This document shows, piece after piece, positions 20,445-63,645 of a stretch of DNA of 64,000 nt. Source of the DNA: an uncultured Verrucomicrobiota bacterium (GTDB lineage: Bacteria > Verrucomicrobiota > Verrucomicrobiia > Palsa-1439 > CAYGDP01); assembly GCA_964348665.1 (NCBI GenBank), contig CAYGDP010000002.1, positions 110,033-174,032 of the forward strand. The letters are read 5' to 3'. A program made the position numbers and the translations under genes. Each line of letters begins with the position of its first letter. The stretch's first letter is position 1. Under the pieces are notes generated by a model. It was given only the letters and a program-made list of their open reading frames with translations. It was not told where the DNA came from and ran no database searches.

Positions 20445-20454
20445 TTTTTTTCAT

Positions 20455-20480
20455 AGGGAGAAGTGGGTCCCCCACTTTTT
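20455..20480 (+). terminator. hairpin plus T-run downstream of tRNA-Pro
   Basis: AAGTGGG-tcc-CCCACTT stem-loop (20461-20477) followed by TTTTT. Confidence 0.4.
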
Positions 20481-20517
20481 CCGTGACAAATCCGTGACAA
20501 ATTTGGTAGTGTCACGG
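20481..20517. promoter_or_regulatory. tandem direct repeats CCGTGACAAAT x2 plus an inverted half-site, candidate integrase arm-type sites
   Basis: 'ccgtgacaaat' at 20481-20491 and again at 20492-20502. An inverted 'gtcacgg' at 20511-20517. Lies between the tRNA 3' end and the integrase start. Confidence 0.35.
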
Positions 20518-20522
20518 GTGTT

Positions 20523-42138: not shown

Positions 42139-42776
42139 GATTCCTGAAAAATTTTTTTGGATCGGTAAAAAAAACAGAGTCGCCGGCGGGTGGCACTGTT
42201 TTGGGGACGTTACTTCAAGCGAAGGAGGCGATTGACACGGAAAACGTTGTGACACTTGAGTCATTGTTGCGTAAACATCCCTCACTCGGCGAGGAACTTG
42301 ATGACTTGGGCTGGTCGCTATTGCATTATGCAGTGGCTCATTACAAGCTTCAGTCGATAGCGCGAATGCTCTCATGCGGATTGAACGTTAATATTTCCAC
42401 AAAGAATGGAAATTGTACGCCTTTGTTTTTTGCGTGTGCTGGGAATGGTCCAATAGAAATGGCACAACTGCTGATTGAACACGGAGCAGACGTTAATTGG
42501 AGAGACGAAGAAGGTGGAACAGCGCTTCATGCGGCAGCAAACCATAACCGAACAGACCTAATTACTCTTCTGATAGCAAAGGGATCTGAGGTAAATGTAA
42601 AAAGGAAGGCCGATGGATGGACTCCACTACATTGTGCAGATAATCTTGAGACGGTAAAGTTGCTCATAGAAAAAGGGGCAAATTCAGCAGCACGGGACAG
42701 GTGTCGACGCACGCGGATGGATATTGCAAGGGGAGCAAAGCAAAACGACATAGCCGAATTTTTGCAGAGATTGTAA
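42135..42776 (+). CDS. ankyrin-repeat protein, candidate immunity protein 2
   Basis: Start overlaps the previous stop (ATGA). Ankyrin repeats ('GWSLLHYAVAHYKLQSIARML', 'GNCTPLFFACAGNGPIEMAQLLIEHGADVN', 'GGTALHAAANHNRTDLITLLIAKGSEVN'). Confidence 0.7.
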   Translation: MRFLKNFFGSVKKTESPAGGTVLGTLLQAKEAIDTENVVTLESLLRKHPSLGEELDDLGWSLLHYAVAHYKLQSIARMLSCGLNVNISTKNGNCTPLFFACAGNGPIEMAQLLIEHGADVNWRDEEGGTALHAAANHNRTDLITLLIAKGSEVNVKRKADGWTPLHCADNLETVKLLIEKGANSAARDRCRRTRMDIARGAKQNDIAEFLQRL

Positions 42777-47807: not shown

Positions 47808-48950
47808 TTAGCGCGCAGTGGTTACCACTTTTCCACGAGTCTTTTGCTCAATCTGGTAAACTGTTTCTAGGTAGCTGCTCTGCATGGCGTTCATTCTATT
47901 TTCCAACCGCTGAATGGTTTCGTTCTTAATCTTCTCGGCTTGTTGGAGTTTAGTGAGCTCGTCTTTCAGGGTACCGATCTCGGTGTTGGTGAATTTGGTA
48001 TCGAGGTTCTTGTTTTCCATCCCCGCGCGTGAAATGTAGACGTCGGGCATGTTGCTGCTGAACCGCCATCCATAACGATAGCAAAGCTCTTGACGATTGA
48101 GTTGCGTTGCGTAGTGCGTCGCCGAGCTGTGGCGGAAGAGATGAGGATGGATTTCCTTTTTCAATATCTCATTGCCGAGCCTGCGTAGAAACATTCTCAT
48201 TCCTCCGTAGGTTGCCTTGAACACGGGATCGGTCGATTTGATTCCTTCGGCGATTCTCTCTTTGAGATATTCCCTGACGGCATCGAGGGAATGTCGCCAG
48301 TAGAGCGAAATCGTCCTGCCCTTGGTCTTGCTGTATTCCTCCTTGAGAGTGATTTTAACGAAATTATCTTTGCTCTCTGGCAAATGAACATCTTCGTAGC
48401 GGATATTGATAAATTCCTCTGCCCGCGCCCCTGAATCGAACAAAACAGCGATGATGAAGCGCTGTTCTGTCGTGCGACAGCCGCTGAATAACTTTTCCAC
48501 CTCTCGCTCAGAGAGATAATCTGGTGTCTTTTCCTTGTAGCGAGTGTCGAGCCAACCCACCAGTTTGATTGCTTTCACCTGCCCAAGTCGCCAGCGCATG
48601 AACACCTTGAACGCCTTTCGCAAATCGACTTTCGTAGAGTGAGAATAGGGAACTTTCTTGAGATGACTTCGGATTTTGTCCTGGCTCAGCGCTTTCTCGA
48701 ATTCTTCCACGTCCTTCAAGGTGATCTGCGCCGTCGGCTTGGCAAAGAATTGGAGCACGACCTTCAAGGAATCGAGATACCTCGCCCGTGAGGACTCCCC
48801 TACCTTTCGTCCCCGATTGATTCTTCCCAGTTCCAACTCCGAGATAAAACGCTGCACGTCTTTTTTGGTGGACTCAGGAACTTTCCACTTTACAACCCCC
48901 TTCAATTTTCCTGCTACCCCTTTGCCGTATGCTTGGATTTTGAGATTCAT
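47808..48950 (-). CDS. tyrosine-type site-specific recombinase/integrase (second copy)
   Basis: 'PHLFRHSSATHYATQ...LCYRYGW' catalytic region. N-terminal SAM-like and core-binding domains. Confidence 0.85.
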   Translation of the reverse strand: MNLKIQAYGKGVAGKLKGVVKWKVPESTKKDVQRFISELELGRINRGRKVGESSRARYLDSLKVVLQFFAKPTAQITLKDVEEFEKALSQDKIRSHLKKVPYSHSTKVDLRKAFKVFMRWRLGQVKAIKLVGWLDTRYKEKTPDYLSEREVEKLFSGCRTTEQRFIIAVLFDSGARAEEFINIRYEDVHLPESKDNFVKITLKEEYSKTKGRTISLYWRHSLDAVREYLKERIAEGIKSTDPVFKATYGGMRMFLRRLGNEILKKEIHPHLFRHSSATHYATQLNRQELCYRYGWRFSSNMPDVYISRAGMENKNLDTKFTNTEIGTLKDELTKLQQAEKIKNETIQRLENRMNAMQSSYLETVYQIEQKTRGKVVTTAR

Positions 48951-49214: not shown

Positions 49215-49547
49215 ATGGCACAGGAACAAATAGATGAATTACAAAGGGCCGAGGAATGCTATCAACAATATCAAGCGCATACTGAAAAAGGCGACATGCG
49301 CTCTGCTCTTGCCGTCTATCACGCTGACCCCGGGCCGCTCTTGTCGGCGATGCCGCAAAACCAAATTGCCTTTCTTTACTTTCTTGTCCTGACTCTGGCA
49401 GGTGTTGACGAGGCGAACCTATTTAGGAAAAGAATCAGCTACGCAATCTCCACAGTGCACGAACAATTGCAATGGGCAGAGGACCAAGCGGCAAAACTAA
49501 ATCCTAAATTGAGTCTTGCCGGATTGGATGACAGCTCAAAGCGATAA
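49215..49547 (+). CDS. hypothetical protein
   Basis: ORF ending in '...LSLAGLDDSSKR'. Its last 30 nt are repeated at 50551-50580. Confidence 0.3.
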   Translation: MAQEQIDELQRAEECYQQYQAHTEKGDMRSALAVYHADPGPLLSAMPQNQIAFLYFLVLTLAGVDEANLFRKRISYAISTVHEQLQWAEDQAAKLNPKLSLAGLDDSSKR

Positions 49548-49551
49548 ATCC
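49521..49551. repeat. 30-nt imperfect direct repeat (copy 1), partner at 50551-50580
   Basis: 'ggattggatgacagctcaaagcgataaatcc' versus 'cattggatgacagcccaaggcgataaatcc' (27/30 identical). They bracket the pRiA4b ORF-3 gene. Confidence 0.7.
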
Positions 49552-49939: not shown

Positions 49940-50506
49940 ATGATCTTACCTCTCAAATCTGACGCAACGGTCTATCAAATCAAGGTCACATTGAAAGACA
50001 CCCGCCCACCGATCTGGCGGCGTTTTCAGGTAACTGGCGAAACCCGCCTATCCAAACTGCACGATACTGTCCAGGTGGTAATGGGCTGGACGAATTCGCA
50101 TTTGCACGAATTTGTCATCGGCGACCGACATTACGGCGAGCCTGACGAGGACAGCCCGGACGAGCTCATCGACGAGAGGAACGTGCTCGTAAGTCAGGTT
50201 GTTGACCAAGAAGGGCAGACGTTTGGTTACGATTATGATTTTGGAGACGATTGGAATCATGAACTTTTGGTGGAGAAGATTCTTCCGAATGAAGCCGGGG
50301 TGCGCTACCCCCGGTGCTTGGAAGGCGCACGCGCGTGCCCTCCCGAAGACAGCGGAGGTCCATGGGGATATGAGGAAAAACTGCAAATTCTCAAGAATCC
50401 AGCCCATCCTAACCATCGCGAGATTGCAACGTGGATGAGGAAGAAATTTGACGCGGAGGCCTTCGATCTTAGCGCGACTAACAAGGCTCTAAAGTCAATT
50501 CGATAG
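49940..50506 (+). CDS. plasmid pRiA4b ORF-3 family protein
   Basis: 'YQIKVTLKDTRPPIWRRFQV...LHDTVQVVMGWTNSHLHEF' is the characteristic N-terminal signature of this family. Confidence 0.75.
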   Translation: MILPLKSDATVYQIKVTLKDTRPPIWRRFQVTGETRLSKLHDTVQVVMGWTNSHLHEFVIGDRHYGEPDEDSPDELIDERNVLVSQVVDQEGQTFGYDYDFGDDWNHELLVEKILPNEAGVRYPRCLEGARACPPEDSGGPWGYEEKLQILKNPAHPNHREIATWMRKKFDAEAFDLSATNKALKSIR

Positions 50507-50620
50507 CAAGGCTCTGGTTCGAAAAAAACTCATACCGCTCTGCCTTCCCGCATTGGATGACAGCCCAAGGCGATAAATCCCTCTTATGTTTGTTGAGATT
50601 ACTGGAAAGGGCATGGTAAT

Positions 50621-50890: not shown

Positions 50891-51041
50891 AAGCAGATGG
50901 GTAGTTTTTTTAGCTCAAAAGGTTCGGAAAATTCTAGAAAAATGGGGTTCCCCTTTCTAGCCTGATGTTTGACCGATGCATATCGGTTTATTTTTTTGAG
51001 AATTTCGTGCGATGAACCCCACACATACTACGTATGTGTAT

Positions 51042-51383
51042 TCAGTCATACTTTTTGCGCAAGAAAATCCGATACGGGCGGTGTGTCTTGTTTCTGGCCG
51101 ACTGTGCGCGGTCGTAATAAACCAGCAGCTCGGAGTCTTTCGAGTCGAGCGGGACGGTATTGGCCAAAAAACGCAGGGCTAGGCCAACAGTGGAGGCACT
51201 GCGATTGCAGAGTTTCATGAGCCGTGAAAGGCTCAAAGGATACTGATAGCAAGACCGAGTACGATAGAGGATTTGGTAGTAAAAGACAATTTTTTGGTAA
51301 ACAAGCGCCAGAAGTTTCGCTTGCCGCTGATCGAGTTCCTCCACGATCCCCGACCTAATCCAAAGTCGCTTCTCCATTTCCAC
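51042..51383 (-). CDS. small helix-turn-helix-like protein
   Basis: 113 aa. 'LSRLMKLCNRSASTVGLALRFLAN' is HTH-like. Overlaps the end of the ATPase gene (same operon). Confidence 0.4.
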   Translation of the reverse strand: MEMEKRLWIRSGIVEELDQRQAKLLALVYQKIVFYYQILYRTRSCYQYPLSLSRLMKLCNRSASTVGLALRFLANTVPLDSKDSELLVYYDRAQSARNKTHRPYRIFLRKKYD

Positions 51384-52728
51384 CTCCCGCCAAAAAATCG
51401 TCTCCGACCGTTCCCTTCTTCACGGGCACGAGCGGAAACTTCACGTGAGAGGGCGAGATTCGGCCTTTGATTTTCACAATCCCTTCTCCCACGGCTAAAC
51501 GATCCAGAAATACCTCATCACCGAGCTCAAGAAAAAGAGCACGCTTGGCTGTCATGATGTCATCCTCGTGCTGCAATCCCAGATAAATCTGCGTGTTGGA
51601 ATTACCCAGCACATAGATCGGCAGCAGTGAAGGATGCTGAGTGATCGTGACCAATCCCTCGCCGAATCCACGGATTTCTCGGAAGACGTTTTCGAGGCTG
51701 TTGGACGCCTGTTTTTCAATATATGTCTTAGGAAAAAGATTGTGAACTTCCTCCAAGAAAGTGACGTGCCGCAAGCTTTCGGTCTCGCCCTGTCCCAAGC
51801 GATAGAGATGAATCCAGCGCAGGATGATGTCGCTAAAGAACACACGTAGCGGCTTGGGTAATTCTTGGTCGAGCTCGATGATGATGGGTTTTTCCAGAAG
51901 CTCTTCGAGCTTCAAGGGGTGTCTGGCATTAAACGCCCCACCCGAAGGGCCAAAGATAAAAGTTTTTAGGATTCTTGAACAACTATCCTGCCAGAGCATT
52001 CGACGCCCTCGGAAATGCAGGCGTTGTAGTTCCTCATTGGCGTCGAAGAAATTTGGATAACGCTCGAAAGTATTATCGTAGATTCCTGCTTTCTCGAACT
52101 CTTTGTCGAAAATCTCCATGAAAATATCCGCCACTCCCGGACCGGAAATGTGGGATTTCTCAAGCGCCTCAGCTACGACAGCAATCCAAGTTTTCGGATG
52201 AACACCGGGCGGAGCGCGCAGAGGATTCCAATTGAAAGAGGAAGCCGTTTTTCTACCAACAGAAAATATTTTCATCTCTTTCAGCTTCGGGTGCTCTAAA
52301 GTGAAAAGATCGCGATAGCTACGTTTCCAATCTACGACGAGAAAGGGGATGTCCCTTCCCAAGAGACCGAGCAAGAGAAGCTGTGCCACATTGGTTTTAC
52401 CGGCGCCTGTGATGGAAAAAATCCCAATATGCTTTAAGAAATTCTCTCGCGTCAGGTAGAGTGGATAGCAGGGCTTCTGATCATAAACGACCGTTCCAAG
52501 AAAAATCTCTCCCTTGGCAGCCTCGGCGGGCGGCGGGGGAAGCAGGATGGGCATTTTATCTACGGCTCCTCCCAAATGCTGCGCCGCGAAAATCTGTATC
52601 AACGACTCTGCTTCCCGCTTGGAATCGAGGGTCTCAGCCGTCGCGTAGCCCAGCCAGAGCATATCGGCTCGCTTGCCCACGATGGGTTTCAATTTCTTGC
52701 AAATGTCTTTAAGTTCACGATCCAGCAT
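51355..52728 (-). CDS. HerA/FtsK-superfamily (DUF87-like) P-loop ATPase
   Basis: Walker A 'FSITGAGKTNVAQLLL', Walker B 'IIIELDQE'. 457 aa. Confidence 0.7.
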   Translation of the reverse strand: MLDRELKDICKKLKPIVGKRADMLWLGYATAETLDSKREAESLIQIFAAQHLGGAVDKMPILLPPPPAEAAKGEIFLGTVVYDQKPCYPLYLTRENFLKHIGIFSITGAGKTNVAQLLLLGLLGRDIPFLVVDWKRSYRDLFTLEHPKLKEMKIFSVGRKTASSFNWNPLRAPPGVHPKTWIAVVAEALEKSHISGPGVADIFMEIFDKEFEKAGIYDNTFERYPNFFDANEELQRLHFRGRRMLWQDSCSRILKTFIFGPSGGAFNARHPLKLEELLEKPIIIELDQELPKPLRVFFSDIILRWIHLYRLGQGETESLRHVTFLEEVHNLFPKTYIEKQASNSLENVFREIRGFGEGLVTITQHPSLLPIYVLGNSNTQIYLGLQHEDDIMTAKRALFLELGDEVFLDRLAVGEGIVKIKGRISPSHVKFPLVPVKKGTVGDDFLAGGGNGEATLD

Positions 52729-53182
52729 GTTCGAGGAAAATCGCGCGGCCTTTGGACTGCTGATGGGTTTCCCAGATTTCCAGGAAATCCTTCATGACCA
52801 TCGCCACATCGCGCCAGCACTCGACCTCCTGTTGTCGACGCTCGGTCTGTAGATCGAAAAGCTGCTGATAAAATATGGATTTCTCGCTGTGTTCGCGAAG
52901 ATGGTAATTGGCAGCGTTATCGAGGCGATTTAGCATTTCTTGGACGGCTTCCTGCTGGGAATCCACACCTCGCAGATTGCGTCCCATCACATTCAATCGA
53001 ACCAGAATCTCTGCCGTGAGGACTTCCAGCTTGGTGTGGAGAAGCTTGGATTTCTGGTGGACGAGATTTTCTAAGTCAGATTCATCTAGGGAATCATTTT
53101 CGGGTTGCTGGGTTACATTGCTATACTGCGGTATACCGATTTCCGAAAGCCTTAAATAGGGTGATTTTTCCATGTTTTGCAC
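52715..53182 (-). CDS. coiled-coil hypothetical protein, first gene of the ATPase operon
   Basis: 155 aa, heptad-rich. Its stop overlaps the ATPase start. Confidence 0.45.
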   Translation of the reverse strand: MQNMEKSPYLRLSEIGIPQYSNVTQQPENDSLDESDLENLVHQKSKLLHTKLEVLTAEILVRLNVMGRNLRGVDSQQEAVQEMLNRLDNAANYHLREHSEKSIFYQQLFDLQTERRQQEVECWRDVAMVMKDFLEIWETHQQSKGRAIFLEHAGS

Positions 53183-55981: not shown

Positions 55982-56344
55982 ATGAACGTATGTACTCTCT
56001 CCGGGAAACTCGTGGATAATGCCGTGGTCAATGGAGCAGAATTCAAAGCTCTGTTTTTCACGGTGCTCACGAAGTACGGATACAACACAACGGAGAAGAA
56101 GGATCGCGTGGCGTATGTACCCTGCGTCATGTGGAATCCAAACCAGGAGATTGAAAAACTCCTCGTCGAAAACGGCAAAGGCCTATGGATCGAAGTCGAA
56201 GGTAGGGTCGCTCGTTCCAGTTATGAAGAGAACGGTCAGCGTAAATTCAACACTGAAGTCGTTGTGAAGAATCGGACGTTGAACGTGCTCAAGAGAAACG
56301 GAACGGGACACGGTGAGTCTATCGAGAAAGGAGCATCGCAATGA
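55982..56344 (+). CDS. SSB-like OB-fold protein 1
   Basis: ATG at 55982 with RBS 'aaaggagaaaac'. 'MNVCTLSGKLV...LWIEVEGRVARSSYEENGQRKFNTEVVVKN' parallels SSB 'IEGRL..R.W.D..G.KR..TEIVV'. No acidic C-terminal tail. Confidence 0.6.
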   Translation: MNVCTLSGKLVDNAVVNGAEFKALFFTVLTKYGYNTTEKKDRVAYVPCVMWNPNQEIEKLLVENGKGLWIEVEGRVARSSYEENGQRKFNTEVVVKNRTLNVLKRNGTGHGESIEKGASQ

Positions 56345-56694
56345 ACGTGTGTATCCTTTCTGGATGGCTCATGAACAACGCCCTCGCTCCAAAAACAGAA
56401 TCCCATGCCTTGTTTTTTACCTTGGTCACAAAATTCGGGTATGACAAGGCGGCTAGGAGGAATCTGATTACTGGTGTGCGGTGCGTGATGTTCGATCCGT
56501 CGCCTGAGATCGAGAAACTGCTGGTTGAGAAGGGAAAGAAGCTGGCAGTGGAAACAGAGGGTTACGTTCGCTTTTGGCGCTACAATGCCAAGGGCGGGTG
56601 TAAACTCGAAGCGGAAGTTGTCGTCAAAAACGACAGCTTTACGGTGTGGAGGCGGTTTCAAGGTCGAGCTTCCCAGAAAGGAGGCTCGCCATGA
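56341..56694 (+). CDS. SSB-like OB-fold protein 2 (paralog of the upstream gene)
   Basis: Start overlaps the upstream stop (ATGA). 'MNVCILSGWLM...LAVETEGYVRFWRYNAKGGCKLEAEVVVKN'. Confidence 0.6.
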   Translation: MNVCILSGWLMNNALAPKTESHALFFTLVTKFGYDKAARRNLITGVRCVMFDPSPEIEKLLVEKGKKLAVETEGYVRFWRYNAKGGCKLEAEVVVKNDSFTVWRRFQGRASQKGGSP

Positions 56695-57152
56695 ATGCGC
56701 TAGCGCAGCCCAAGGAATACAAAGTAGTTGCCTTGCGGGAATGCCCAACACCGATGGAACTGCAATCGTGCGATTGCCCTAGCAAAGCAGCCGAGTATTG
56801 GAATCGGAACGTCATCACGGCGTCTTATTTCAATCCCGACTGCGAGTGCTTTGTAGTGGTGATGCTCAATACCAAGAACCGCGTCAAAGGCCATTATTTG
56901 GTTTCATTTGGCACAGTTAACGCGAGCTTGGTACACGCTCGGGAAGTATTTCGAGCGGCCATCATTGCAGGTTCGACGAGCGTCTTGCTGATGCACAATC
57001 ACCCCAGCGGTGATCCGACACCTTCAAGCGAGGATGTCCGCATCACCAAGCAACTGGTTCAAGCAGGCAAGATTCTCGGCATTGAAGTCATGGACCACGT
57101 GATTGTCGGTTATGACAAGCACGTTTCACTTAAGGAGTTGGGACTGTTGTAA
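56691..57152 (+). CDS. RadC-like JAB-domain (DUF2466) protein
   Basis: RBS 'aaaggagg'. 'LLMHNHPSGDPTPSSEDVRITKQL...GIEVMDHVIV' is the JAMM/RadC signature. Confidence 0.85.
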   Translation: MNALAQPKEYKVVALRECPTPMELQSCDCPSKAAEYWNRNVITASYFNPDCECFVVVMLNTKNRVKGHYLVSFGTVNASLVHAREVFRAAIIAGSTSVLLMHNHPSGDPTPSSEDVRITKQLVQAGKILGIEVMDHVIVGYDKHVSLKELGLL

Positions 57153-57171: not shown

Positions 57172-57203
57172 CGCTGCTCTCTTAGCGGAGAGCGGCTTTT
57201 TTT
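57172..57203 (+). terminator. rho-independent terminator after the RadC-like gene
   Basis: GC-rich hairpin 'gctgctct...agagcggc' followed by TTTTTTT. Confidence 0.5.
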
Positions 57204-57232: not shown

Positions 57233-57736
57233 ATGGGAGCTGATCTTTACATTGTGGAGATTAGCCTGCCAATCCAAGAGTGGTATGAGCCGCTCTTTGA
57301 TAAGGCGGTAAGGCAAAGAAATCTCTGGCCGAAAGGTTCAGAGAGGGAGCAGAAAGCGCACAAGGACGTGGTGAGATATTACAACCTGATGCACGCAGCG
57401 GGATATTTCAGCGATCCTTATGACGCGAGCAGTTTGCTCAAACATCTCGGACTCTCTTGGTGGTCGGACGTCCTGCCCCTGTGCGACCAAGACCGTCGTC
57501 TTGAAGACGAAAGCTTGAGGAAGTTCCGCGCAATGGTAGGGCGCAATCCCGTGCAGTATCCGACCGAGGAAGAGTTCAAGAAAGAACTGGTAGCTCTGGA
57601 AGACGGCAGGAAAAGTCTGGATGCATGGTGCAGATACTTCGCAGCGAAGCACATGACGCTGATGTTGTTTCTGGACCAGGCACTTTTGCTGGATGCCGCC
57701 GTGCATTGCTCCTTTGGAATTCCTGACGGAAGATAG
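57233..57736 (+). CDS. hypothetical protein, 'MGADLYI' family paralog A
   Basis: RBS 'aaaggaga'. 167 aa. Shares 'MGADLYI..L.....YKPLF(D/E)KAV.QR...P.......K.......Y..L....GYF.D.Y...LLK.LGLSWW..V.PL' with the gene at 58514. Confidence 0.55.
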   Translation: MGADLYIVEISLPIQEWYEPLFDKAVRQRNLWPKGSEREQKAHKDVVRYYNLMHAAGYFSDPYDASSLLKHLGLSWWSDVLPLCDQDRRLEDESLRKFRAMVGRNPVQYPTEEEFKKELVALEDGRKSLDAWCRYFAAKHMTLMLFLDQALLLDAAVHCSFGIPDGR

Positions 57737-57850
57737 GGCAACGCTGGGAAGCGACCTGAGCGCCGGCAGGACTGTCACGCCAATGCGGCAAGACAACCTG
57801 CTCCTCGTCTTTCACGGCGGGGAGCAGGTCTGTTTTTCCGTCGCTGGCAT

Positions 57851-57936
57851 CGGAATAAACCCCGGAATTAACCCGGAATAAAGCCAGAATAAACCCGGAA
57901 TTAAGTTTATTCCGGTCTATTCCGAGGAATAAATCC
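57851..57936. repeat. iteron-like array of eight GGAATWAA units (six direct, two inverted) at 10-11 bp phasing
   Basis: 'cGGAATAAAccccGGAATTAAcccGGAATAAAgccaGAATAAAcccGGAATTAAgTTTATTCCggtctATTCCgaGGAATAAAtcc'. Confidence 0.55.
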
Positions 57937-58038
57937 TTCTGTTTGGCACCGCGCTTCCTTACGGGGATGCGACTGCTGGGCAGAATCGCTCGGTATCAGC
58001 CGCGGATCGCAGCGGCAATTCAAGAAGGAGAAACAACC

Positions 58039-58443
58039 ATGAATACAGTAGAGAAGTTGCAGTGTACCCAAGACCCGCTCTCGGTCTATGAAGAAACCGC
58101 GAGAGCTTATGCGGATTGTACAATCGGCGGAAAGGAAGGGGGAAAGTTGCGGAATCTGAATTTCCGCGCTTCCGCTCCTTTGCGCCTGCTCGAATGGATG
58201 GAGTGCATGAAACGCGCTACTCCTGAAGGATACAACCAGTTCAACGCCGTACGAGTCGGACGGGTTCTGGCGCAACTCGGCGTTAGTCTGGATGCGGTGT
58301 TCATTCCCGCTCGGGAGTACAGCGTTTGCGTTTATGTACGGGCCGATGGATGGCTCTTGCAACATATCCTCAACAACGCTGCCGCTCTGCAGGCCGATGA
58401 AGCCGATATCGTGGACGGCGAGTTGCGTTTGTGGTGGGATTAA
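58039..58443 (+). CDS. hypothetical protein
   Basis: ATG at 58039 with RBS 'aaggag'. 134 aa, no motif. Confidence 0.45.
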   Translation: MNTVEKLQCTQDPLSVYEETARAYADCTIGGKEGGKLRNLNFRASAPLRLLEWMECMKRATPEGYNQFNAVRVGRVLAQLGVSLDAVFIPAREYSVCVYVRADGWLLQHILNNAAALQADEADIVDGELRLWWD

Positions 58444-58513
58444 ATGGAGGGTCGCGCAATGCGGCCTCCTCCCACTTTTAATCATCAACAATCGAAAGAA
58501 AGGAGACGTGTGT

Positions 58514-59002
58514 ATGGGTGCAGACCTCTATATCCATCAGCTCTACGATCCGACGAAAGAAAGGTATAAGCCGCTTTTTGAAAAAGCGGTAATGCAGAGG
58601 GATTCATTTCCACGAGATTCGAAGGAATGGAAAGTGGCCCAACGGAAAGTCTGGAAGTACTTCGACCTGATGAATTCCAAGGGCTACTTCCGCGATTCGT
58701 ATAGCACGGCAAACGTGCTTCGGACGCTGGGTTTATCGTGGTGGCGAAATGTGATCCCCCTGCTTAACAAAAAGAACGAACTGGAAGGCAAGAACCTGAA
58801 AAAGTTCCGCAAGATGGTAGCCAATGCAAAACAACGTCTGCCAACGAAAGCGGAGCTTCAGAAAGATGGAGCGCGTGGAAAACGATCGGGAGCAAACCGT
58901 TTGAAGATGTGGCGCAAGTATTACATCAGGAAACGAGCGCGACTCATCGCGTTTCTCGACGAGGCGATCAAACGGAATCACTCGATCCACTGCTCGCTCT
59001 GA
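58514..59002 (+). CDS. hypothetical protein, 'MGADLYI' family paralog B
   Basis: ATG at 58514 with RBS 'aaaggagacg'. Colinear with paralog A over the first 100 aa or so. Basic C-terminal tail. Confidence 0.55.
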   Translation: MGADLYIHQLYDPTKERYKPLFEKAVMQRDSFPRDSKEWKVAQRKVWKYFDLMNSKGYFRDSYSTANVLRTLGLSWWRNVIPLLNKKNELEGKNLKKFRKMVANAKQRLPTKAELQKDGARGKRSGANRLKMWRKYYIRKRARLIAFLDEAIKRNHSIHCSL

Positions 59003-59125: not shown

Positions 59126-60202
59126 ATGAAGAATGAAAGTATCACGTTGTATTACCGTGAAGGTTCATCGGACAAAGTTTATCAAGCGGCCATTGAAGAA
59201 AAGAACGGCGGGTTCGTCGTTAACTTCGCCTTTGGCCGTCGGGGCAGCACGTTACAGACGGGGACGAAAACAGCATCACCTGTAAGCTTCGAGGAAGCAA
59301 AGCGGGTCTATGACAAACTGGTAGCTTCCAAGGTCGGAAAGGGTTACACACCGGGCGCAGACGGGACTCCTTACGCGCAAACCGAAGAAGCAGGACGCGT
59401 AAGCGGGTTTCTGCCGCAGTTGTGTAATCCAGTCAGAGAGGACGAGGTTGCGTGCATCCTCCCTGACAAAAGCTATTGGATGGAAGAAAAGTTCGACGGA
59501 AAGCGCATGTTGCTTCGCAAAGAAGGACAGAACGTTGTCGGCATCAATCGGAAGGGTCTGGTTGTTGCATTGCCGCAGCCGTTGATTATGGCAGCGCAAA
59601 AGTATGACGAGAGCTTCCTGCTCGATGGCGAATGCGTCGGAGAGACGCTTCACGTCTTCGACTTGCTCCTCCTGAACGGCGAGAAAATGGTAGGTCTCGC
59701 GATGTGTGAACGGCGACACACATTGGAGGAGCTGCTGCAGATTGACGATCCGCACTTGTTGCTCGTTGAGACAGAGAAATCGGTGGCGGGAAAGGCTGAG
59801 AAGTTTACCTACTTCAAAGCCATGCGAAAAGAAGGCGTCGTGTTCAAGCGATACAACGCCCCTTACGCTCCAGGACGGCCTGCCAATGGTAGCGGATGGT
59901 TCAAGCACAAATTCGTCACAAGTGGATCGTTCATAGTGAGCCGTGTGAACGCCGATCGCCGCAGCGTCGGTCTTGAAGTATTCGAGGAGAGAAAACGCAT
60001 CGGAGTCGGCAATGTCACGATACCCGTTAACGCCGAAGTGCCAATAGTAGGCGACATCATCGAGGTACGTTACCTCTACGCCTATCGTGGTGGGAGTCTG
60101 TTTCAACCCGTGTATCTGGGACCGCGAGATGATCTCTCGTTGCTCGATTGCACGGTGCGAGAGTTGAAGTATCGCGCAGAAGATAGTGAAGAAGAGGCAT
60201 AA
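59126..60202 (+). CDS. WGR-domain / ATP-dependent DNA ligase fusion protein
   Basis: ATG at 59126 with RBS 'aaaggaa'. N-terminal WGR-like domain ('ITLYYREGSSDKVYQA...FAFGRRGSTLQTG...EEAKRVYDKLVASKVGKGY'). Ligase motifs: I 'EEKFDGKR', III 'LLDGE', IV 'EGVVFKR', V 'GWFKHKF', VI 'PVYLGPRDD'. Confidence 0.85.
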   Translation: MKNESITLYYREGSSDKVYQAAIEEKNGGFVVNFAFGRRGSTLQTGTKTASPVSFEEAKRVYDKLVASKVGKGYTPGADGTPYAQTEEAGRVSGFLPQLCNPVREDEVACILPDKSYWMEEKFDGKRMLLRKEGQNVVGINRKGLVVALPQPLIMAAQKYDESFLLDGECVGETLHVFDLLLLNGEKMVGLAMCERRHTLEELLQIDDPHLLLVETEKSVAGKAEKFTYFKAMRKEGVVFKRYNAPYAPGRPANGSGWFKHKFVTSGSFIVSRVNADRRSVGLEVFEERKRIGVGNVTIPVNAEVPIVGDIIEVRYLYAYRGGSLFQPVYLGPRDDLSLLDCTVRELKYRAEDSEEEA

Positions 60203-60301: not shown

Positions 60302-60697
60302 ATGTGCATCAATTGGAAAATAATTCACAAGTACACTCGTGCTGATGCAATCAGAGACGGAGTGCTTGTGGACTTGCGACAGGGAGAGTTGGCAGAGGTC
60401 GTTGAGAATGCCGGGATCAAAGTTCCAGTGGCAATGACGCGTACTGCATTCGAGCGTTATGTTTCACTAACGCAAGCAGCACAGGAAGCGGGCAACGACA
60501 TAAAGGGTCGGCTCTGGGACATCCTTTGGATGTATCGGTGCGCCGCGCAGAAGAATCCTCATGAAAGCGTGATGTGCTTTTCATTCTACTGCGTCGTGGA
60601 TCAGCCTAAGCCGAAAAAGTGCGAGATCAAGGTAATAGTCGGTCCAGGAGACGATCCTGCGCCCGTATTGACGTTCCTGCTACCCAAAGAAGATTGA
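60302..60697 (+). CDS. hypothetical protein
   Basis: 131 aa, in the same operon between the ligase and ArdC-like genes. Confidence 0.4.
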   Translation: MCINWKIIHKYTRADAIRDGVLVDLRQGELAEVVENAGIKVPVAMTRTAFERYVSLTQAAQEAGNDIKGRLWDILWMYRCAAQKNPHESVMCFSFYCVVDQPKPKKCEIKVIVGPGDDPAPVLTFLLPKED

Positions 60698-60777: not shown

Positions 60778-61668
60778 ATGAACAAAGTGTATGAAATTGT
60801 CACGCAACGTATCATCAATGCGTTGGAACAAGGAGAAATCCCGTGGCGACCGCGATTCAGCGTTGACAAAGGCTTGCCACGCAACGCCGTCTCGAAAAAG
60901 CCCTATCGGGGCGTTAATCTCCTGTTGCTCTGGCTTGCTAGATATCAGGACAATCGCTTCCTGACGTTTAAGCAAGCAAAGGAAATGGGCGGGGAAGTAA
61001 AGAAGGGAGAGCACGGTTGGCCGGTAATCTTTTGGAAACTCCAAGAGATAGACGAAACCATCCCAAGCACGGGAGAGTTAAAGCAAGTTCCTGTGTTGAG
61101 ATACTACACCGTGTTCAATGTATCGCAGTGCAGTGGATTGGGCTTGCCAAAGATTATTGAGGTGAGTGAGTTCACGCCTATTGAAATGGGCGAGCGCATT
61201 CTCCTCGGCTATCCCAATCCGCCCTGCGTCTTCTATGGAAAAGGCTGCGGTTGTTATCGGCCGTCCGATGACATTGTGGAGATGCCGCGCCCTGAAACGT
61301 TCCAGAAAAATGAGCACTACTACTCCGTGCTTTTCCACGAGCTAGTGCATAGCACAGGACACGCGAAGCGGCTAAATCGCGAGGAAATAGCCACGCCAAA
61401 GAAATTCGGCAGCGAGCCGTACTCACGCGAGGAACTCGTCGCCGAACTTGGTTCTGCGTTTCTCTGTGCGGAGTGCGGAATCGAGCAAGACACGTTGGAG
61501 GATCATGCCGCCTACATTCAAGGTTGGCTCAAGCGACTCAAAGATGATTCGCGTTTGATCGTGTTGGCTGCTGCCGCTGCACAGCGCGCCGCTGATCACA
61601 TTCTTGCGCGGACCTTTGAGTCAGTGGAAAGCTCCGCTGAAACTGCCGCGCCAATGCTCGTATCGTAA
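60778..61668 (+). CDS. ardC: ArdC-like antirestriction protein (N-terminal ssDNA-binding DUF1738-like + C-terminal zincin metallopeptidase)
   Basis: ATG at 60778 with RBS 'aaaggaaaa'. 'IPWRPRFS...PYRGVNLLLLW' N-domain and HExxH 'FHELVHSTGH' C-domain. Confidence 0.8.
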   Translation: MNKVYEIVTQRIINALEQGEIPWRPRFSVDKGLPRNAVSKKPYRGVNLLLLWLARYQDNRFLTFKQAKEMGGEVKKGEHGWPVIFWKLQEIDETIPSTGELKQVPVLRYYTVFNVSQCSGLGLPKIIEVSEFTPIEMGERILLGYPNPPCVFYGKGCGCYRPSDDIVEMPRPETFQKNEHYYSVLFHELVHSTGHAKRLNREEIATPKKFGSEPYSREELVAELGSAFLCAECGIEQDTLEDHAAYIQGWLKRLKDDSRLIVLAAAAAQRAADHILARTFESVESSAETAAPMLVS

Positions 61669-62001: not shown

Positions 62002-63645
62002 TCATTTTTTTCTCCGTGCCGGTCTTTTACCGGAACGAACCAAAGCAAGCCGCTGTTTTTTAAGCGCCATGTGAAATTCGTAATCTTCGCTTGCTTCGCG
62101 CAAGATGTAAGATTGATGCGCTAAACGATCAGGATACCTCGGAAGTGCCTCTTGCTTGCGCTTAGCCCAAGTAATGATTTCGCCTTGCTCTTTTCTCGGA
62201 AGCATTGGGAATAGGTCGAAGTATCGCCGAGAGGAAATACCTGAGAATTGCTTGAAGTGAACAAATCTCGAAAGAGGTTCACTGTCATCGACATCAACTT
62301 TTATCGAGTCAGAATGGTGCTCTTGTGCAAAACTTTTTGGATAAGGTTCCGTATAGATCACCTGACGGATTCCAGCCGCAACGATATGCCTGGCACAAAC
62401 GTGGCAGGGAAAGGTCGTGGTGTATAACGTAGCTCCGTCTACTCGAACTCCGCGCCGTGCCGCATCCATTAACGCGGCCATCTCCGCATGCACCGTACGT
62501 GCAAACTCCCCTACCTGCATAAGTGTTCCATCCCCAATTAAACTTAGAATTTCTTGTTCTTTATTCTTCTTAAATGTTTTGGCATTTAAATCCAAGATTC
62601 CTTTGTGGAGCAGTCTCTTTTTATAAAACTTTTCTAACAACTCAAAGAGCCCGGTTTTTTTAACAGTAGTGCCAACATCTGCCCCCAGACGGAAATCACG
62701 GGCATCGCCTTCGTCGCCATTCCAATATTGACCTCCACCGGCTTTGGGTACTTCGTTTGTTCCAACTGATATTATTGATCCATCAGGATCCACAATGGCT
62801 GCCCCAACTTGGCGTGATAAATCTGCAGAACGGAACGCAGCAGACTGGGCAAAAAACATTCCATACTCCTGCCTCGATGGAGAATGGCTCGGATGACGGA
62901 ACAGAAGTTGAACGTATCTTTGAACCGAGATGCGCATTTCCTCAGGATCTCCTACATCTACGAATAGGTCAGCTTTAGAAAATGTGTCGCGCATATTCTG
63001 GCCGAAATCAGCGTATTCTTCTTTTTCATCGCGTTGAATTAACGATTGGGCGATCGGGCGGGACCGATCAGATCTCGGATCCCGTTTTGAATCTGCGATC
63101 CGTTTCGCGAGTCTTAGAACCCTGGACTCCCGTGGTGAGTACGCTGAGATCAAATGAAAGGCATCGCAGTATACCTGTCGGAGGAGTCTTGCCTCATCCG
63201 GATGCTTCAAAGATCTAAGTAGGAATGCAAGATTCGGTACGGGCTTATTCTCGTATTTCCAAAAATCCCTTGGGCCCTTCGGTTGAGGCGGAGGAATTGG
63301 CCTCTTAAATCTTTTCCTCCAGTAAGAGTATCGAATGTCGCGTATCTGATTTATGGCAACAAGTGCCAAGGCATCTCCGCGCTTAAGGGTTTTCCTTAGT
63401 TTATTGCCTGCGTCCATGTGTAAAGTGATCCTTGTATCCTCAGGACTAAGCGGGAGATTCTTCCACTTCCGGAATTGATGCAATAATTCAGCGAGATGTA
63501 TCTCCTGGGTCTTATATCCTACTTCGGAGAGCGAATCTGTAATGGCTTGAGAAACCTCCGTGAGGCCGGCACCTAACGGACCGGCTAAAGCGAAGAATAA
63601 CTCTGGTCTCTCTGACGTGCTGATTTGTTTTTGTTTGAATTCCAT
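62002..63645 (-). CDS. nucleotide-kinase-like + CMP/dCMP-deaminase-domain protein, resembling anti-phage dCTP deaminase (DCD) defence proteins
   Basis: ATG at 63645 with RBS 'gaaagga'. N-terminal P-loop-like 'FFALAGPLGAGLTEV'. C-terminal zinc-deaminase 'HAEMAALMDAARRG...TFPCHVCARHIVAAGIRQVIY' (H-A-E ... P-C-x-x-C). Confidence 0.6.
   Translation of the reverse strand: MEFKQKQISTSERPELFFALAGPLGAGLTEVSQAITDSLSEVGYKTQEIHLAELLHQFRKWKNLPLSPEDTRITLHMDAGNKLRKTLKRGDALALVAINQIRDIRYSYWRKRFKRPIPPPQPKGPRDFWKYENKPVPNLAFLLRSLKHPDEARLLRQVYCDAFHLISAYSPRESRVLRLAKRIADSKRDPRSDRSRPIAQSLIQRDEKEEYADFGQNMRDTFSKADLFVDVGDPEEMRISVQRYVQLLFRHPSHSPSRQEYGMFFAQSAAFRSADLSRQVGAAIVDPDGSIISVGTNEVPKAGGGQYWNGDEGDARDFRLGADVGTTVKKTGLFELLEKFYKKRLLHKGILDLNAKTFKKNKEQEILSLIGDGTLMQVGEFARTVHAEMAALMDAARRGVRVDGATLYTTTFPCHVCARHIVAAGIRQVIYTEPYPKSFAQEHHSDSIKVDVDDSEPLSRFVHFKQFSGISSRRYFDLFPMLPRKEQGEIITWAKRKQEALPRYPDRLAHQSYILREASEDYEFHMALKKQRLALVRSGKRPARRKK

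What the first reader, a model, noticed from the sequence alone, without database searches (positions are those of the whole stretch)
59126..60202. Fusion of a WGR domain to a minimal ATP-dependent DNA ligase
The N-terminal about 90 aa carry WGR-like hallmarks ('AFGRRGS', flanking helices). A complete set of nucleotidyltransferase ligase motifs I, III, IV, V and VI follows.

The WGR domain is best known as the DNA-break-sensing module of PARPs. Fused to a ligase on a mobile element, it may target the ligase to nicks or breaks in incoming DNA, for repair of restriction damage or sealing after integration.
Basis: partly seen in the sequence, partly recalled or inferred. Interest (0 to 1): 0.6.

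Follow-up and report, generated by a model that had tools for sequence, protein, structure and literature searches.

The report
WGR-domain DNA ligase on integrative element
The gene really does encode a small ATP-dependent DNA ligase with an N-terminal WGR domain of the kind PARP enzymes use to sense DNA breaks, but this fusion belongs to a large family already noted in the literature and in databases, so it is a well-supported but fairly ordinary, biochemically untested find.

Summary
Window 59126..60202 (+) encodes a 358-aa protein with three parts. The first is a WGR domain: Pfam PF05406 scores 28.7 bits against a cut-off of 22, and the predicted fold is closest to the PARP1 and PARP2 WGR domains. 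The second is an ATP-dependent ligase nucleotidyltransferase domain (PF01068, 63 bits). The third is a C-terminal OB-like domain. Motifs I, III, IIIa, IV and V, including the adenylation lysine K122, are invariant in 34 aligned homologues.

The fusion is not new. More than 5,600 relatives exist, mostly in Planctomycetota and Verrucomicrobiota, and also on plasmids of Actinomycetota, Pseudomonadota and Acidobacteriota and on phage contigs. NCBI names them 'WGR domain-containing protein'. A 2020 ligase review already describes bacterial WGR-ligases. I found no biochemical study of one.

The gene lies in a low-GC island with an integrase, a HerA-like ATPase, SSB, RadC and ArdC. Most homologues instead sit between a PD-(D/E)XK nuclease and a sliding-clamp-like gene plus DUF932.

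The most likely function is a self-contained nick-sealing ligase serving the mobile element's own DNA. The WGR domain would replace the DNA-binding domain of larger ligases as the nick and 5'-phosphate binder. That mechanism is inferred, not shown. Verdict: a new member of a known kind, of modest interest.

The parts
59126..60202 (+). Complete gene for the 358-aa WGR-ligase, stop codon included
   Evidence: ORF and sequence. The identical protein P0001 is called on public contigs. Pfam finds WGR and DNA_ligase_A_M.
59135..59359 (+). WGR domain, residues about 4-78: four beta-strands and a long helix, with the F36-G37-R38 motif
   Evidence: Pfam PF05406 scores 28.7-32.1 bits against a cut-off of 22. 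The AF2 model has pLDDT 84. Its best TM matches are PARP1 WGR 2cr9 (TMq 0.64) and PARP2 WGR-DNA complexes 6f5b and 9zqb (TMq 0.61-0.65, rmsd 1.9-2.1 A). hhalign places F36-G37-R38 on PARP1 W589-G590-R591.
59360..59434 (+). Conserved linker, residues 79-103: the rest of 'KGYTPGxDGTPY' (residues 72-83, starting in the WGR domain) and '...PQLxNP'
   Evidence: Residues in and around it are invariant in the 34-sequence alignment: K72, G73, P76, G77, G80, T81, P82, Y83, Q98, L99 and N101. The 'G[TS]PY' motif is found in only 48 of 81 ligases at the genome loci, so it marks a subfamily. Model confidence is lower here (pLDDT about 68-83).
59435..59914 (+). Nucleotidyltransferase (adenylation) domain, residues 104-263, with motifs I-V; the K122 codon is 59489-59491
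   Evidence: PF01068 scores 63.4 bits. NCBIfam NHEJ_ligase_lig gives E 3.9e-20, which is below its cut-off. PDB sequence hits are archaeal ligases and Mtu LigD. Motif residues are invariant. pLDDT is 90-97.
59915..60160 (+). C-terminal OB-like domain, residues 264-345, with a motif VI-like 'FQPVYLGPRDD'
   Evidence: The model has five strands at 265-333. The whole-core structural alignment to mycobacterial LigD LigDom 6nhz gives TMt 0.68 over 308 columns. No Pfam OB model matches.
60302..60697 (+). Downstream neighbour, a 131-aa DUF6573 protein
   Evidence: Pfam PF20213 in the precomputed annotation. Homologues lie within 4 kb of the ligase in 2 of the 80 other loci, one upstream and one downstream.
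60778..61668 (+). ArdC-type anti-restriction protein (ArdcN plus MPTase-PolyVal), same strand
   Evidence: PHROG 7245 'anti-restriction protein' E 6.4e-75. An ArdC-like gene also lies near the WGR-ligase on Acidisarcina plasmid pACPOL3 and in L060.
55982..57152 (+). SSB (55982..56344), an unknown 117-aa gene, and a RadC/JAB protein (56691..57152), upstream on the same strand
   Evidence: Pfam SSB and RadC. RadC lies near the ligase in 7 of 80 other loci, and an SSB lies upstream in the related element L002/L106.
57233..59002 (+). Three unknown genes between RadC and the ligase: paralogues 57233..57736 and 58514..59002, and a 134-aa ORF at 58039..58443
   Evidence: Gene calls. The paralogues are 40% identical, E 2e-46. 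None has a Pfam or PHROG hit.
51022..53173 (-). g5, a HerA-like ATPase (DUF87, 51355..52728) and g7: backbone genes shared with the related element in L002/L106
   Evidence: Pfam DUF87. PADLOC HerA hits are weak. The protein is 72% identical in L002, with the same gene order ahead of SSB and the ligase.
47808..48950 (-). Tyrosine recombinase (integrase), the probable left end of the element
   Evidence: Pfam Phage_integrase E 6.1e-12. The related compact element L106 also carries an integrase.

Best explanation
The gene encodes an active, stand-alone ATP-dependent DNA ligase built from three modules.

The C-terminal two-thirds is a minimal LigD-like catalytic core, a nucleotidyltransferase domain plus an OB-like domain. 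By the standard ligase chemistry it self-adenylylates on K122, transfers AMP to a 5'-phosphate, and seals the nick.

The N-terminal WGR domain takes the place of the separate DNA-binding domain, zinc finger or latch that other ligases use. I infer that it binds the break itself: an aromatic residue (F36) stacks on the 5'-terminal sugar and R38 contacts the 3' side, as W151 and R153 do in PARP2. This would give a small enzyme affinity and specificity for 5'-phosphorylated nicks.

The enzyme is carried by an integrative mobile element, together with an integrase, a HerA-like ATPase, SSB, RadC and ArdC. It most probably seals nicks in the element's own DNA during replication, transfer, establishment or repair of nuclease damage, without relying on the host's NAD-dependent ligase.

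Shown: the domain content, conserved catalytic residues, fold similarity, family size and mobile-element context. Inferred: ligase activity, the nick-sensing role of WGR, and the biological role.
For: Domains:
- Pfam WGR and DNA_ligase_A_M both score above their cut-offs.
- The PHROG 'ATP-dependent DNA ligase' family matches at E 1.7e-21.
- All catalytic motif residues are invariant in 34 homologues. They are present in 77-81 of 81 ligases at genome loci and in all 19 plasmid or viral copies in which a ligase ORF was picked out.

Structure:
- The full-length model has pLDDT 87.
- The core is closest to the mycobacterial LigD ligase domain (6nhz, TMt 0.68).
- The N-terminal domain's best TM matches are PARP1 and PARP2 WGR domains, including DNA-bound PARP2 WGR (rmsd about 2 A, Foldseek probability 0.94-0.99).
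- hhalign puts F-G-R on PARP1 W589-G590-R591. PMC6294510 shows those positions contact the nick.

Modular fusion:
- Two viral relatives lack the WGR domain (L100, L102).
- Others carry two WGR domains before the ligase.

Mobile context:
- Window annotation.
- GC content drops.
- The related 10-kb element L106 has the same HerA-like ATPase, SSB, ligase and integrase set between chromosomal genes.
- Full-length homologues lie on 18 annotated plasmids. Eighteen IMG/VR contigs hold relatives, two of them without the WGR domain, and one jumbo phage carries one.
- Up to three copies occur per genome.
- The partners in other loci are DNA-metabolism genes: a PD-(D/E)XK nuclease in 49-50 of 80 loci, a sliding-clamp-like protein in 38-39, DUF932 in 33, and a DnaG-like primase.
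Against: - No activity has been measured for any member of this family that I could find.
- The W of W-G-R is replaced by F or Y.
- The sequence link between this WGR domain and PARP WGR is weak: hhalign probability is 25%, Foldseek E-values are 0.1-1, and a profile search of the PDB finds only 2ra8 at E 0.34.
- Whether PARP2's 5'-phosphate-binding Tyr201 has an equivalent here was not established.
- No Pfam OB model hits the C-terminus, and an aromatic residue stands where, as I recall it, other ligases' motif VI begins with a basic residue.
- The gene's immediate neighbours in the window are mostly not conserved around homologues (RadC 7 of 80, ArdC 1 of 80). The 'leading-region' or anti-restriction reading therefore rests on few loci.
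- No conjugation machinery or att sites were found in the window.
Confidence: 0.6

Rival explanations
1. It is a host non-homologous end-joining ligase of the LigD type, as JGI annotates many homologues. It would work with Ku on chromosomal double-strand breaks.
For: JGI names many relatives 'bifunctional non-homologous end joining protein LigD'. The best NCBIfam and structural matches are LigD ligase domains.
Against: NCBIfam NHEJ_ligase_lig scores 72.3 bits against a cut-off of 227.75, and DNA ligase D scores 57.6 against 373.2. The protein is only 358 aa and has no polymerase or phosphoesterase domain. No Ku gene appears within 10 kb here or in the four other annotated loci examined. Multi-copy carriage and presence on plasmids and phages point to mobile elements.
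Confidence: 0.06
2. It acts on RNA or RNA-containing junctions rather than plain DNA nicks. It could be an RNA ligase, or a ligase that seals nicks with a 3'-ribonucleotide, with WGR acting as an RNA-binding or hybrid-binding module.
For: Pfam RNA_ligase gives a weak hit (E 0.0017, 18.9 bits), and that family is precomputed for many homologues. PGAP names two plasmid homologues 'RNA ligase family protein'. The 2020 review says WGR functions in RNA binding in other proteins. From my own knowledge, LigD-type ligase domains prefer a 3'-ribonucleotide at the nick.
Against: The RNA_ligase score is below its cut-off of 27, while the DNA-ligase model is well above its own. The core has the NTase plus OB layout seen in DNA ligases. 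The conserved partners are DNA-metabolism proteins: SSB, a clamp-like protein, a PD-(D/E)XK nuclease and a primase.
Confidence: 0.12
3. The ligase is real, but the WGR domain is not a nick sensor. It could be a general nucleic-acid-binding or protein-interaction module, for example one that docks onto the clamp-like partner. It could also be an autoinhibitory switch, like the allosteric role WGR plays in PARPs.
For: Bacterial WGR domains occur in many non-repair architectures. This subfamily is also found fused to TerB-C or HEAT repeats, and MolR-like transcription factors carry WGR (PMC7824862). The canonical Trp is not kept. Similarity to PARP WGR is mostly at the fold level.
Against: The arginine and an aromatic residue of the motif are invariant or nearly so in 80 of 81 family members. 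A ligase's substrate is exactly what PARP2's WGR recognises. Small ligases need some extra DNA-binding element, and none other is present.
Confidence: 0.2

Closest known systems
Bacterial WGR-containing ATP-dependent ligases noted by Williamson and Leiros 2020 (NAR 48:8225, PMC7470946). The review describes an 'NT-OB_2-WGR' cluster from delta-proteobacteria and Planctomycetia, and a third Prochlorococcus marinus ligase with an N-terminal WGR.
   Same: Same architecture, an N-terminal WGR on a small NTase plus OB ligase, and the same phyla. Most relatives here are Planctomycetota and Verrucomicrobiota. These ligases are likewise uncharacterised biochemically.
   Different: Pfam does not recognise an OB_2 or any other OB domain in this protein or in the listed homologues. 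Identity with that exact cluster is therefore likely but not proven. The review does not discuss mobile-element carriage or the conserved partner genes found here.
Ligase domain of bacterial LigD (M. tuberculosis and M. smegmatis, PDB 1vs0 and 6nhz)
   Same: Closest solved structure and closest curated HMM for the catalytic core. Same motifs I-VI layout.
   Different: There are no polymerase or phosphoesterase domains and no Ku partner. Scores are far below the family cut-offs. About 20% identity. This protein has a WGR domain, which LigD lacks.
Human DNA ligase III N-terminal PARP-like zinc finger (PDB 3l2p context)
   Same: Same design idea: a ligase core extended at the N-terminus by a break-sensing module of a kind also used by PARP1. 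This comparison comes from my own knowledge. 3l2p is among the structural hits to the core.
   Different: The sensor module is different (a zinc finger, not WGR). Ligase III also has a full DNA-binding domain. The enzyme is eukaryotic.
WGR domains of PARP1, PARP2 and PARP3
   Same: Same fold (TMq 0.57-0.65, rmsd about 2 A for PARP2). The G-R of the signature motif is conserved, with an aromatic residue at the W position. Pfam family membership is above the cut-off.
   Different: This domain is shorter, about 75 aa against about 115. It is not attached to an ADP-ribosyltransferase. W is replaced by F or Y. Equivalents of the other PARP2 DNA contacts (K130, Y132, K179, K183, Y201) were not established.
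Minimal ligases that use other DNA-binding add-ons: Chlorella virus ligase (latch), Lig E (none), Pmar-Lig and ASFV ligase (their own N-terminal domains)
   Same: A small NTase plus OB core that needs an extra element to hold nicked DNA. Lig E, Pmar-Lig and the ASFV ligase appear among the structural matches (6gdr, 6rar, 6imj).
   Different: The add-on here is a WGR domain, which none of those enzymes has.

Membership tests
ATP-dependent DNA ligase (nucleotidyltransferase superfamily, Pfam PF01068) | HMM score above the curated cut-off | tested here: met
   63.4 bits against 26.2, E 3.1e-17. PHROG 114 'ATP-dependent DNA ligase' E 1.7e-21.
ATP-dependent DNA ligase (nucleotidyltransferase superfamily, Pfam PF01068) | Motif I KxDGxR with the adenylation lysine, plus motifs III, IIIa, IV and V | tested here: met
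   K122, D124, G125, R127, D167, G168, E169, F178, D179, E236, G237, V239, K241, K260 and K262 are invariant in 34 sequences. The motifs are present in 77-81 of 81 family members at genome loci.
ATP-dependent DNA ligase (nucleotidyltransferase superfamily, Pfam PF01068) | C-terminal OB domain with motif VI | tested here: inconclusive
   The model shows a five-stranded C-terminal domain, and the core aligns over 308 columns to LigD NTase plus OB. 'QP...R.D' is conserved. However, no Pfam OB model matches, even at E 10.
ATP-dependent DNA ligase (nucleotidyltransferase superfamily, Pfam PF01068) | ATP-dependent self-adenylylation and nick sealing | not testable with these tools
   This needs an enzyme assay. 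No published assay of a WGR-ligase was found.
WGR domain (Pfam PF05406) | HMM score above the curated cut-off | tested here: met
   28.7 bits for the full protein and 32.1 bits for the N-terminal 105 aa, against a cut-off of 22.
WGR domain (Pfam PF05406) | WGR fold (antiparallel sheet plus helix) as in PARP1 and PARP2 | tested here: met
   The best TM matches of the N-terminal model are 2cr9, 6f5b, 6usj, 9zq9 and 9zqb (TMq 0.61-0.65, probability 0.97-0.99), although Foldseek E-values are only 0.1-1.
WGR domain (Pfam PF05406) | Signature Trp-Gly-Arg | tested here: inconclusive
   The motif here is F36-G37-R38. G and R are invariant, and the first position is F or Y across the family. It aligns to PARP1 W589-G590-R591.
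LigD (NHEJ ligase; NCBIfam TIGR02776 and TIGR02779) | Score above the equivalog cut-off | tested here: not met
   72.3 bits against 227.75, and 57.6 bits against 373.2.
LigD (NHEJ ligase; NCBIfam TIGR02776 and TIGR02779) | Polymerase and phosphoesterase domains, and/or a Ku partner gene | tested here: not met
   The only Pfam domains are WGR and the NTase. No Ku family appears in the neighbourhood annotations.
'NT-OB_2-WGR' ligase cluster of Williamson and Leiros 2020 | Bacterial ATP-dependent ligase with an annotated WGR domain, from Planctomycetia or delta-proteobacteria | tested here: met
   The relatives are overwhelmingly Planctomycetota and Verrucomicrobiota proteins carrying PF05406 and PF01068. 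Review text.
'NT-OB_2-WGR' ligase cluster of Williamson and Leiros 2020 | Pfam DNA_ligase_OB_2 domain | tested here: not met
   There is no OB_2 hit in this protein or in the precomputed Pfam lists of the 120 closest homologues.
Conjugative-element leading-region or anti-restriction gene set | Position next to SSB and anti-restriction genes, close to an oriT, relaxase or type IV secretion system | tested here: inconclusive
   SSB, RadC and ArdC lie on the same strand within 3.2 kb. An ArdC-like gene and ParB lie next to the homologue on pACPOL3. No relaxase, type IV secretion or oriT genes were seen in the window or in L001.

The most novel reading that the evidence does not exclude
The WGR-ligase is a dedicated establishment or counter-defence factor of mobile elements. 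It would be an ATP-powered nick-sealing enzyme that keeps incoming or replicating element DNA intact in two situations: when host nucleases nick or cut it, or when NAD-depleting defences disable the host's NAD-dependent LigA. In most relatives it would work as a three-part module with a Cas4-like PD-(D/E)XK nuclease and an element-encoded sliding clamp. That module would be a bacterial mobile-element analogue of the flap-nuclease, PCNA and ligase trio.
Probability: 0.2. Interest if true: 0.6.

Novelty: new member of a known kind. Interest (0 to 1): 0.3.

Why it matters
If the inferred mechanism holds, this family shows that bacteria and their mobile elements solved the 'small ligase needs a nick sensor' problem with the same domain that PARPs use to detect breaks. 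This parallels the PARP-like zinc finger of human ligase III.

A compact 358-aa ligase with a built-in nick-recognition module could also be useful as a reagent.

The family is large (thousands of members), is linked to mobile elements, and as far as I could find has never been assayed. A single biochemical study would therefore annotate a great many genes. As a discovery, though, the architecture is already on record.

Tried and rejected
1. A longer ORF from the ATG at 59045 (385 aa). Rejected, because public gene calls and homologue N-termini support 59126.
2. The antisense ORF 59276..60106 (276 aa) and its 'conserved' cluster in 78 loci. This is a shadow of the conserved ligase frame, not a gene.
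3. A test of whether the window's neighbours (SSB, RadC, unknowns, DUF6573, ArdC, defence genes) travel with the ligase. Mostly they do not: RadC 7 of 80, DUF6573 2 of 80, ArdC 1 of 80, SSB 1 of 80. The 'anti-restriction operon' idea could not be generalised.
4. A search for element ends. The 3' end of tRNA-Pro is not repeated in the window or in L001. Direct repeats around the island are short, lie inside genes and look like chance matches.
5. The promoter and terminator scan was no better than shuffled sequence. Only the terminator-like hairpins after RadC (57173..57196) and at 57796..57829 look convincing.
6. A profile of the N-terminal domain against PDB sequences found only 2ra8 at E 0.34. 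Sequence alone does not reach PARP.
7. Pfam on the isolated C-terminus found no OB model.
9. Literature searches for any assay of a WGR-ligase, or for an ArdC/RadC/ligase association, found nothing beyond the 2020 review.
10. The exact-sequence cluster look-up gave no source name for this protein.
Full report

Yes. An ORF on the + strand ends at 60202, and the ATG at 59126 gives 358 aa. An in-frame ATG at 59045 would add 27 residues. Public gene calls give exactly the 358-aa product (P0001, 100% identical), and homologue N-termini align at 'MxxESITLYY'. The finding's coordinates are therefore correct.

Pfam finds a WGR domain (PF05406, residues 13-78, E 1.5e-6, 28.7 bits against a gathering cut-off of 22). 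The N-terminal 105 aa alone score 32.1 bits. Pfam also finds the ATP-dependent ligase adenylation domain (PF01068, E 3.1e-17, 63.4 bits against 26.2).

In an alignment of 34 homologues at 50-71% identity, these residues are invariant:
- motif I: K122, D124, G125, R127;
- motif III: D167, G168, E169;
- motif IIIa: F178, D179;
- motif IV: E236, G237, V239, K241;
- motif V: K260, K262;
- a motif VI-like stretch: Q327, P328, R334, D336;
- in the WGR signature 'AFGRRG': A35, G37, R38, G40.

A regular-expression census of 81 family ligases from genome loci finds K.DG.R in 77, [FYW]GR.G in 80, DGE in 81 and EG.V.K in 81.

**2. Anatomy**

An AlphaFold2 model built on the 34-sequence alignment has mean pLDDT 87.3. 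It shows:
- an N-terminal unit of four strands and a helix (residues 4-71);
- a less confident conserved linker (72-103). It contains 'KGYTPGxDGTPY', which is invariant in the close subfamily but present in only 48 of 81 wider members;
- a high-confidence NTase domain (about 104-263);
- a five-stranded C-terminal domain (265-333).

Against the PDB, the whole model is closest to the ligase domain of mycobacterial LigD (6nhz, TMt 0.68 over 308 columns; 1vs0). Many archaeal, viral and human ligases follow. The C-terminal domain is thus OB-like by structure, although no Pfam OB model recognises it even at E 10.

A separate model of residues 1-89 (pLDDT 84.4) has as its best TM-score matches:
- PARP1 WGR, 2cr9 (TMq 0.64, probability 0.99);
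- PARP2 WGR bound to 5'-phosphorylated DNA, 6f5b (TMq 0.61, rmsd 2.1 A);
- PARP2 WGR on nicked nucleosomes, 9zq9 and 9zqb (TMq 0.62-0.65, rmsd 1.9-2.1 A).

The Foldseek E-values are only 0.1-1, as expected for a domain of about 75 residues.

A profile-to-sequence comparison places F36-G37-R38 on PARP1 W589-G590-R591, and the following helix on the PARP1 helix (E 7.8e-4 for the single comparison, probability 25%).

[quoted passage not shown] Y201 and K130 read the 5'-phosphate (PMC6294510). The ligase family keeps the arginine and has an aromatic F or Y at the W position. I could not establish equivalents of the other contacts.

**3. How common is it, and is it already known?**

The word-indexed search returned 5,607 proteins at E <= 1e-3. 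Its top 120 are all proteins of about 305-375 aa, most with PF05406 and PF01068 precomputed.

Where a source names them, NCBI calls them 'WGR domain-containing protein' and JGI calls them 'bifunctional non-homologous end joining protein LigD'. The N-terminal 89 aa alone hit 2,416 representative clusters at 50% identity in 1.84 billion proteins, and 1,244 at E <= 1e-10. Most hits are ligase-length proteins or fragments.

Other architectures exist in this WGR subfamily:
- two WGR domains before the ligase (P0121, P0122, P0212, P0249);
- WGR with TerB-C;
- WGR with HEAT repeats.

Two viral relatives have the ligase core without WGR (L100, L102).

The 2020 review by Williamson and Leiros (PMC7470946) already reports a large bacterial cluster from delta-proteobacteria and Planctomycetia in which more than two thirds of the ligases carry a WGR domain. 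It also reports a Prochlorococcus ligase with an N-terminal WGR. Five further literature searches found no biochemical or genetic study of such an enzyme. The architecture is therefore known, and the function is not.

**4. Context in the window**

A tRNA-Pro gene (20370..20445) is followed directly by an integrase (20523..21743). Next come a 6,177-aa RHS-repeat protein (22866..41399) and an ankyrin protein. From about 40 kb onward the GC content falls from 0.53-0.62 to 0.46-0.52.

A second integrase lies at 47808..48950 (-). To its right the order is:
- a PRiA4_ORF3 protein;
- a minus-strand trio, g5, a HerA-like DUF87 ATPase and g7;
- g8 and two methyltransferase-like genes;
- then, all on the + strand: SSB, an unknown gene, RadC, three unknown genes (two are paralogues, 40% identical), the WGR-ligase, DUF6573 and ArdC. 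ArdC matches ArdcN plus MPTase-PolyVal, and PHROG 'anti-restriction protein' at E 6e-75.

Immediately beyond, on the minus strand, comes a run of defence-type genes:
- a dCTP-deaminase defence protein (PADLOC E 1e-148);
- a PD-(D/E)XK protein;
- a nucleoside deoxyribosyltransferase;
- a SIR2_2 protein;
- a fused PDC-M57A/B candidate;
- QueC and Vsr.

No relaxase, type IV secretion genes or att repeats were found.

The closest genomic relative with usable flanks is L002/L106, a Verrucomicrobiia MAG whose ligase is 63% identical. Its ligase lies in a compact element of about 10 kb between ordinary chromosomal genes. The gene order is DUF4143; g5, DUF87 (72% identical) and g7; a toxin-antitoxin pair; a g8-like gene; SSB; two small genes; the ligase; a 132-aa gene; a MoxR-like ATPase; a 422-aa gene; and an integrase. 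The ligase is therefore part of the conserved backbone of a small integrative element, not a chance passenger.

**5. Context of the wider family**

In 80 loci from species-representative genomes, the window's own neighbours are rarely found (RadC 7, DUF6573 2, ArdC 1, SSB 1).

Clustering all ORFs in those loci shows a different, strongly conserved, co-directional arrangement:
- an unknown protein of about 196 aa (43-48 loci; a relative in L086 has a weak, sub-threshold GemA resemblance);
- a Cas4-like PD-(D/E)XK nuclease with a C-terminal cysteine cluster (49-50 loci; PF12705 E 9e-31);
- a small protein of about 196 aa with hydrophobic stretches that look membrane-spanning (17-21 loci; not formally predicted);
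- the ligase;
- a roughly 500-aa sliding-clamp-like protein (38-39 loci; PHROG 'DNA polymerase processivity factor' E 3e-26, with weak DnaN Pfam hits);
- DUF932 (33 loci).

DUF1257, an AAA ATPase, DUF3150, a DnaG-like primase, WYL regulators and integrases appear nearby in smaller numbers. In the clade nearest the window (L086), the order is ligase, small gene, the unknown protein, then PD-(D/E)XK, with an integrase upstream.

Several genomes carry two or three copies (for example FR_30: L018, L027, L042).

Full-length homologues lie on 18 annotated plasmids. These include plasmids of Mycobacterium avium, Mycolicibacterium, Tsukamurella, Variovorax, Rhodanobacter, Acidisarcina and a P. aeruginosa megaplasmid. 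On Acidisarcina pACPOL3 the order is ArdC-like, ParB, WGR-ligase. One jumbo phage and 18 IMG/VR contigs also carry relatives.

The common thread is carriage by mobile elements, alongside DNA replication and repair genes.

**6. Most likely mechanism**

Shown: a conserved, apparently intact ATP-dependent ligase core with a genuine WGR domain at its N-terminus, on an integrative element.

Inferred from the established chemistry of the nucleotidyltransferase ligases: K122 is adenylylated by ATP, AMP is passed to the 5'-phosphate of a nick, and the 3'-OH attacks to seal it.

Inferred from PARP2 structures: the WGR domain supplies the extra DNA contact that a minimal NTase plus OB core needs. It would sit on the nick with F36 and R38 and possibly read the 5'-phosphate. 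It would thus play the part of the DNA-binding domain of Lig1 or LigB, the latch of the Chlorella virus ligase, or the PARP-like zinc finger of human ligase III (comparison from my own knowledge).

Inferred from context: the enzyme serves the element's own DNA. It could seal after replication or second-strand synthesis, after integration or excision, or after nuclease damage, independently of the host's NAD-dependent LigA. I put about 0.8 on 'active ATP-dependent polynucleotide ligase', about 0.55 on 'WGR is the nick or end sensor', about 0.4 on a specific establishment or anti-restriction role, and 0.6 on the composite statement.

**7. Rivals**

- A LigD-type NHEJ role is unlikely. NCBIfam scores are far below the cut-offs, there are no polymerase or phosphoesterase domains, and there is no Ku gene.
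- An RNA or ribonucleotide-junction substrate cannot be excluded. The evidence for it is a weak RNA_ligase hit, PGAP naming of some homologues, and the review's remark on RNA binding.
- WGR could be a generic binder, a docking site for the clamp-like partner, or a regulatory switch rather than a nick sensor. Its occurrence in unrelated architectures keeps that open.

**8. Novelty and score**

The fusion is real, conserved and mechanistically suggestive. It is also already recorded in a review and in routine annotation, and this copy is one of thousands, so it is a new member of a known kind.

What may be new is the comparative picture:
- the linkage to mobile elements;
- the PD-(D/E)XK, ligase and clamp-like module;
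- the variants with two tandem WGR domains.

That picture is descriptive and untested. Interest is 0.3.

The most novel reading not excluded is that these ligases are establishment or counter-defence factors that keep mobile DNA sealed in the face of host nucleases or NAD depletion. I give that a probability of about 0.2, and an interest of about 0.6 if true.

Noticed in passing
window 62002..63645 (-), continuing in L001 14626..21077 (beyond the window end): There is a minus-strand defence island directly after ArdC. It holds a dCTP-deaminase defence protein (PADLOC dCTPase E 1.4e-148), a PD-(D/E)XK protein, a nucleoside 2-deoxyribosyltransferase and a SIR2_2 protein (weak ThsA-like). It also holds a fused PDC-M57A+B candidate (DUF6884 plus GIY-YIG), QueC and Vsr.
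   Followed up: partly
window 22866..41399 (+): A single 6,177-aa ORF carries PKD, Calx-beta, He_PIG, Big_9, cadherin-like, DUF6531 and RHS-repeat domains. This is a giant polymorphic-toxin-type surface protein. An ankyrin-repeat protein follows at 42135..42776.
   Followed up: partly
window 20370..21743: tRNA-Pro(CGG) is followed immediately by a tyrosine integrase, a classic island insertion site. The tRNA 3' end is not repeated anywhere in the window or in L001. GC content falls from about 0.53-0.62 to 0.46-0.52 from about 40 kb onward.
   Followed up: partly
window 57233..57736 and 58514..59002 (+): Two paralogous genes of unknown function (167 and 162 aa, 40% identity, E 2e-46, both starting 'MGADLYI') bracket a third unknown gene at 58039..58443, between RadC and the ligase. 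None has a Pfam or PHROG hit, and no homologue appears in the 80 ligase loci.
   Followed up: partly
loci L002-L081, for example L085 8437..12714, L051 8226..9044 and L045 5535..7058: Most family members sit in a conserved co-directional block. Its order is an unknown protein of about 196 aa, a Cas4-like PD-(D/E)XK nuclease, a small protein with hydrophobic stretches, the WGR-ligase, a roughly 500-aa sliding-clamp-like protein, and DUF932. The nuclease, clamp and ligase combination resembles the flap-nuclease, PCNA and ligase trio, and I did not find it described in my literature searches.
   Followed up: partly
proteins P0121, P0122, P0212, P0249 (442-501 aa); P0223; P0206: This WGR subfamily has variants with two tandem WGR domains ahead of the ligase core. 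Others are fused to TerB-C or to a HEAT-repeat protein. Two WGR domains bridge a double-strand break in PARP2 crystals, so the tandem forms might handle double-strand ends.
   Followed up: partly
L106 4518..15133 (Verrucomicrobiae MAG JAJVHY010000012.1): A compact integrative element of about 10 kb shares the window's backbone: g5, a HerA-like ATPase (72% identical), g7, a g8-like gene, SSB and the ligase. It also has a DUF433-PIN toxin-antitoxin pair, a MoxR-like ATPase and an integrase. No capsid or type IV secretion genes are visible, so its mode of transfer is unclear.
   Followed up: partly
window 49515..49551 and 50544..50580: A 37-nt imperfect direct repeat (89% identity, 1,029 bp apart) brackets the PRiA4_ORF3-family gene (49940..50506). 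Its meaning is unknown.
   Followed up: no
window 59276..60106 (-): A 276-aa antisense ORF lies inside the ligase gene and appears 'conserved' in 78 loci. This is a shadow of the conserved sense frame, not an independent gene.
   Followed up: yes
L085 16589..20743 (-): Near one homologue lies a 1,384-aa protein that joins Y-family polymerase domains (IMS, IMS_C) to PHP and DnaE-type polymerase domains. It is next to a LexA-like gene and looks like an ImuB-DnaE2-like fusion.
   Followed up: no
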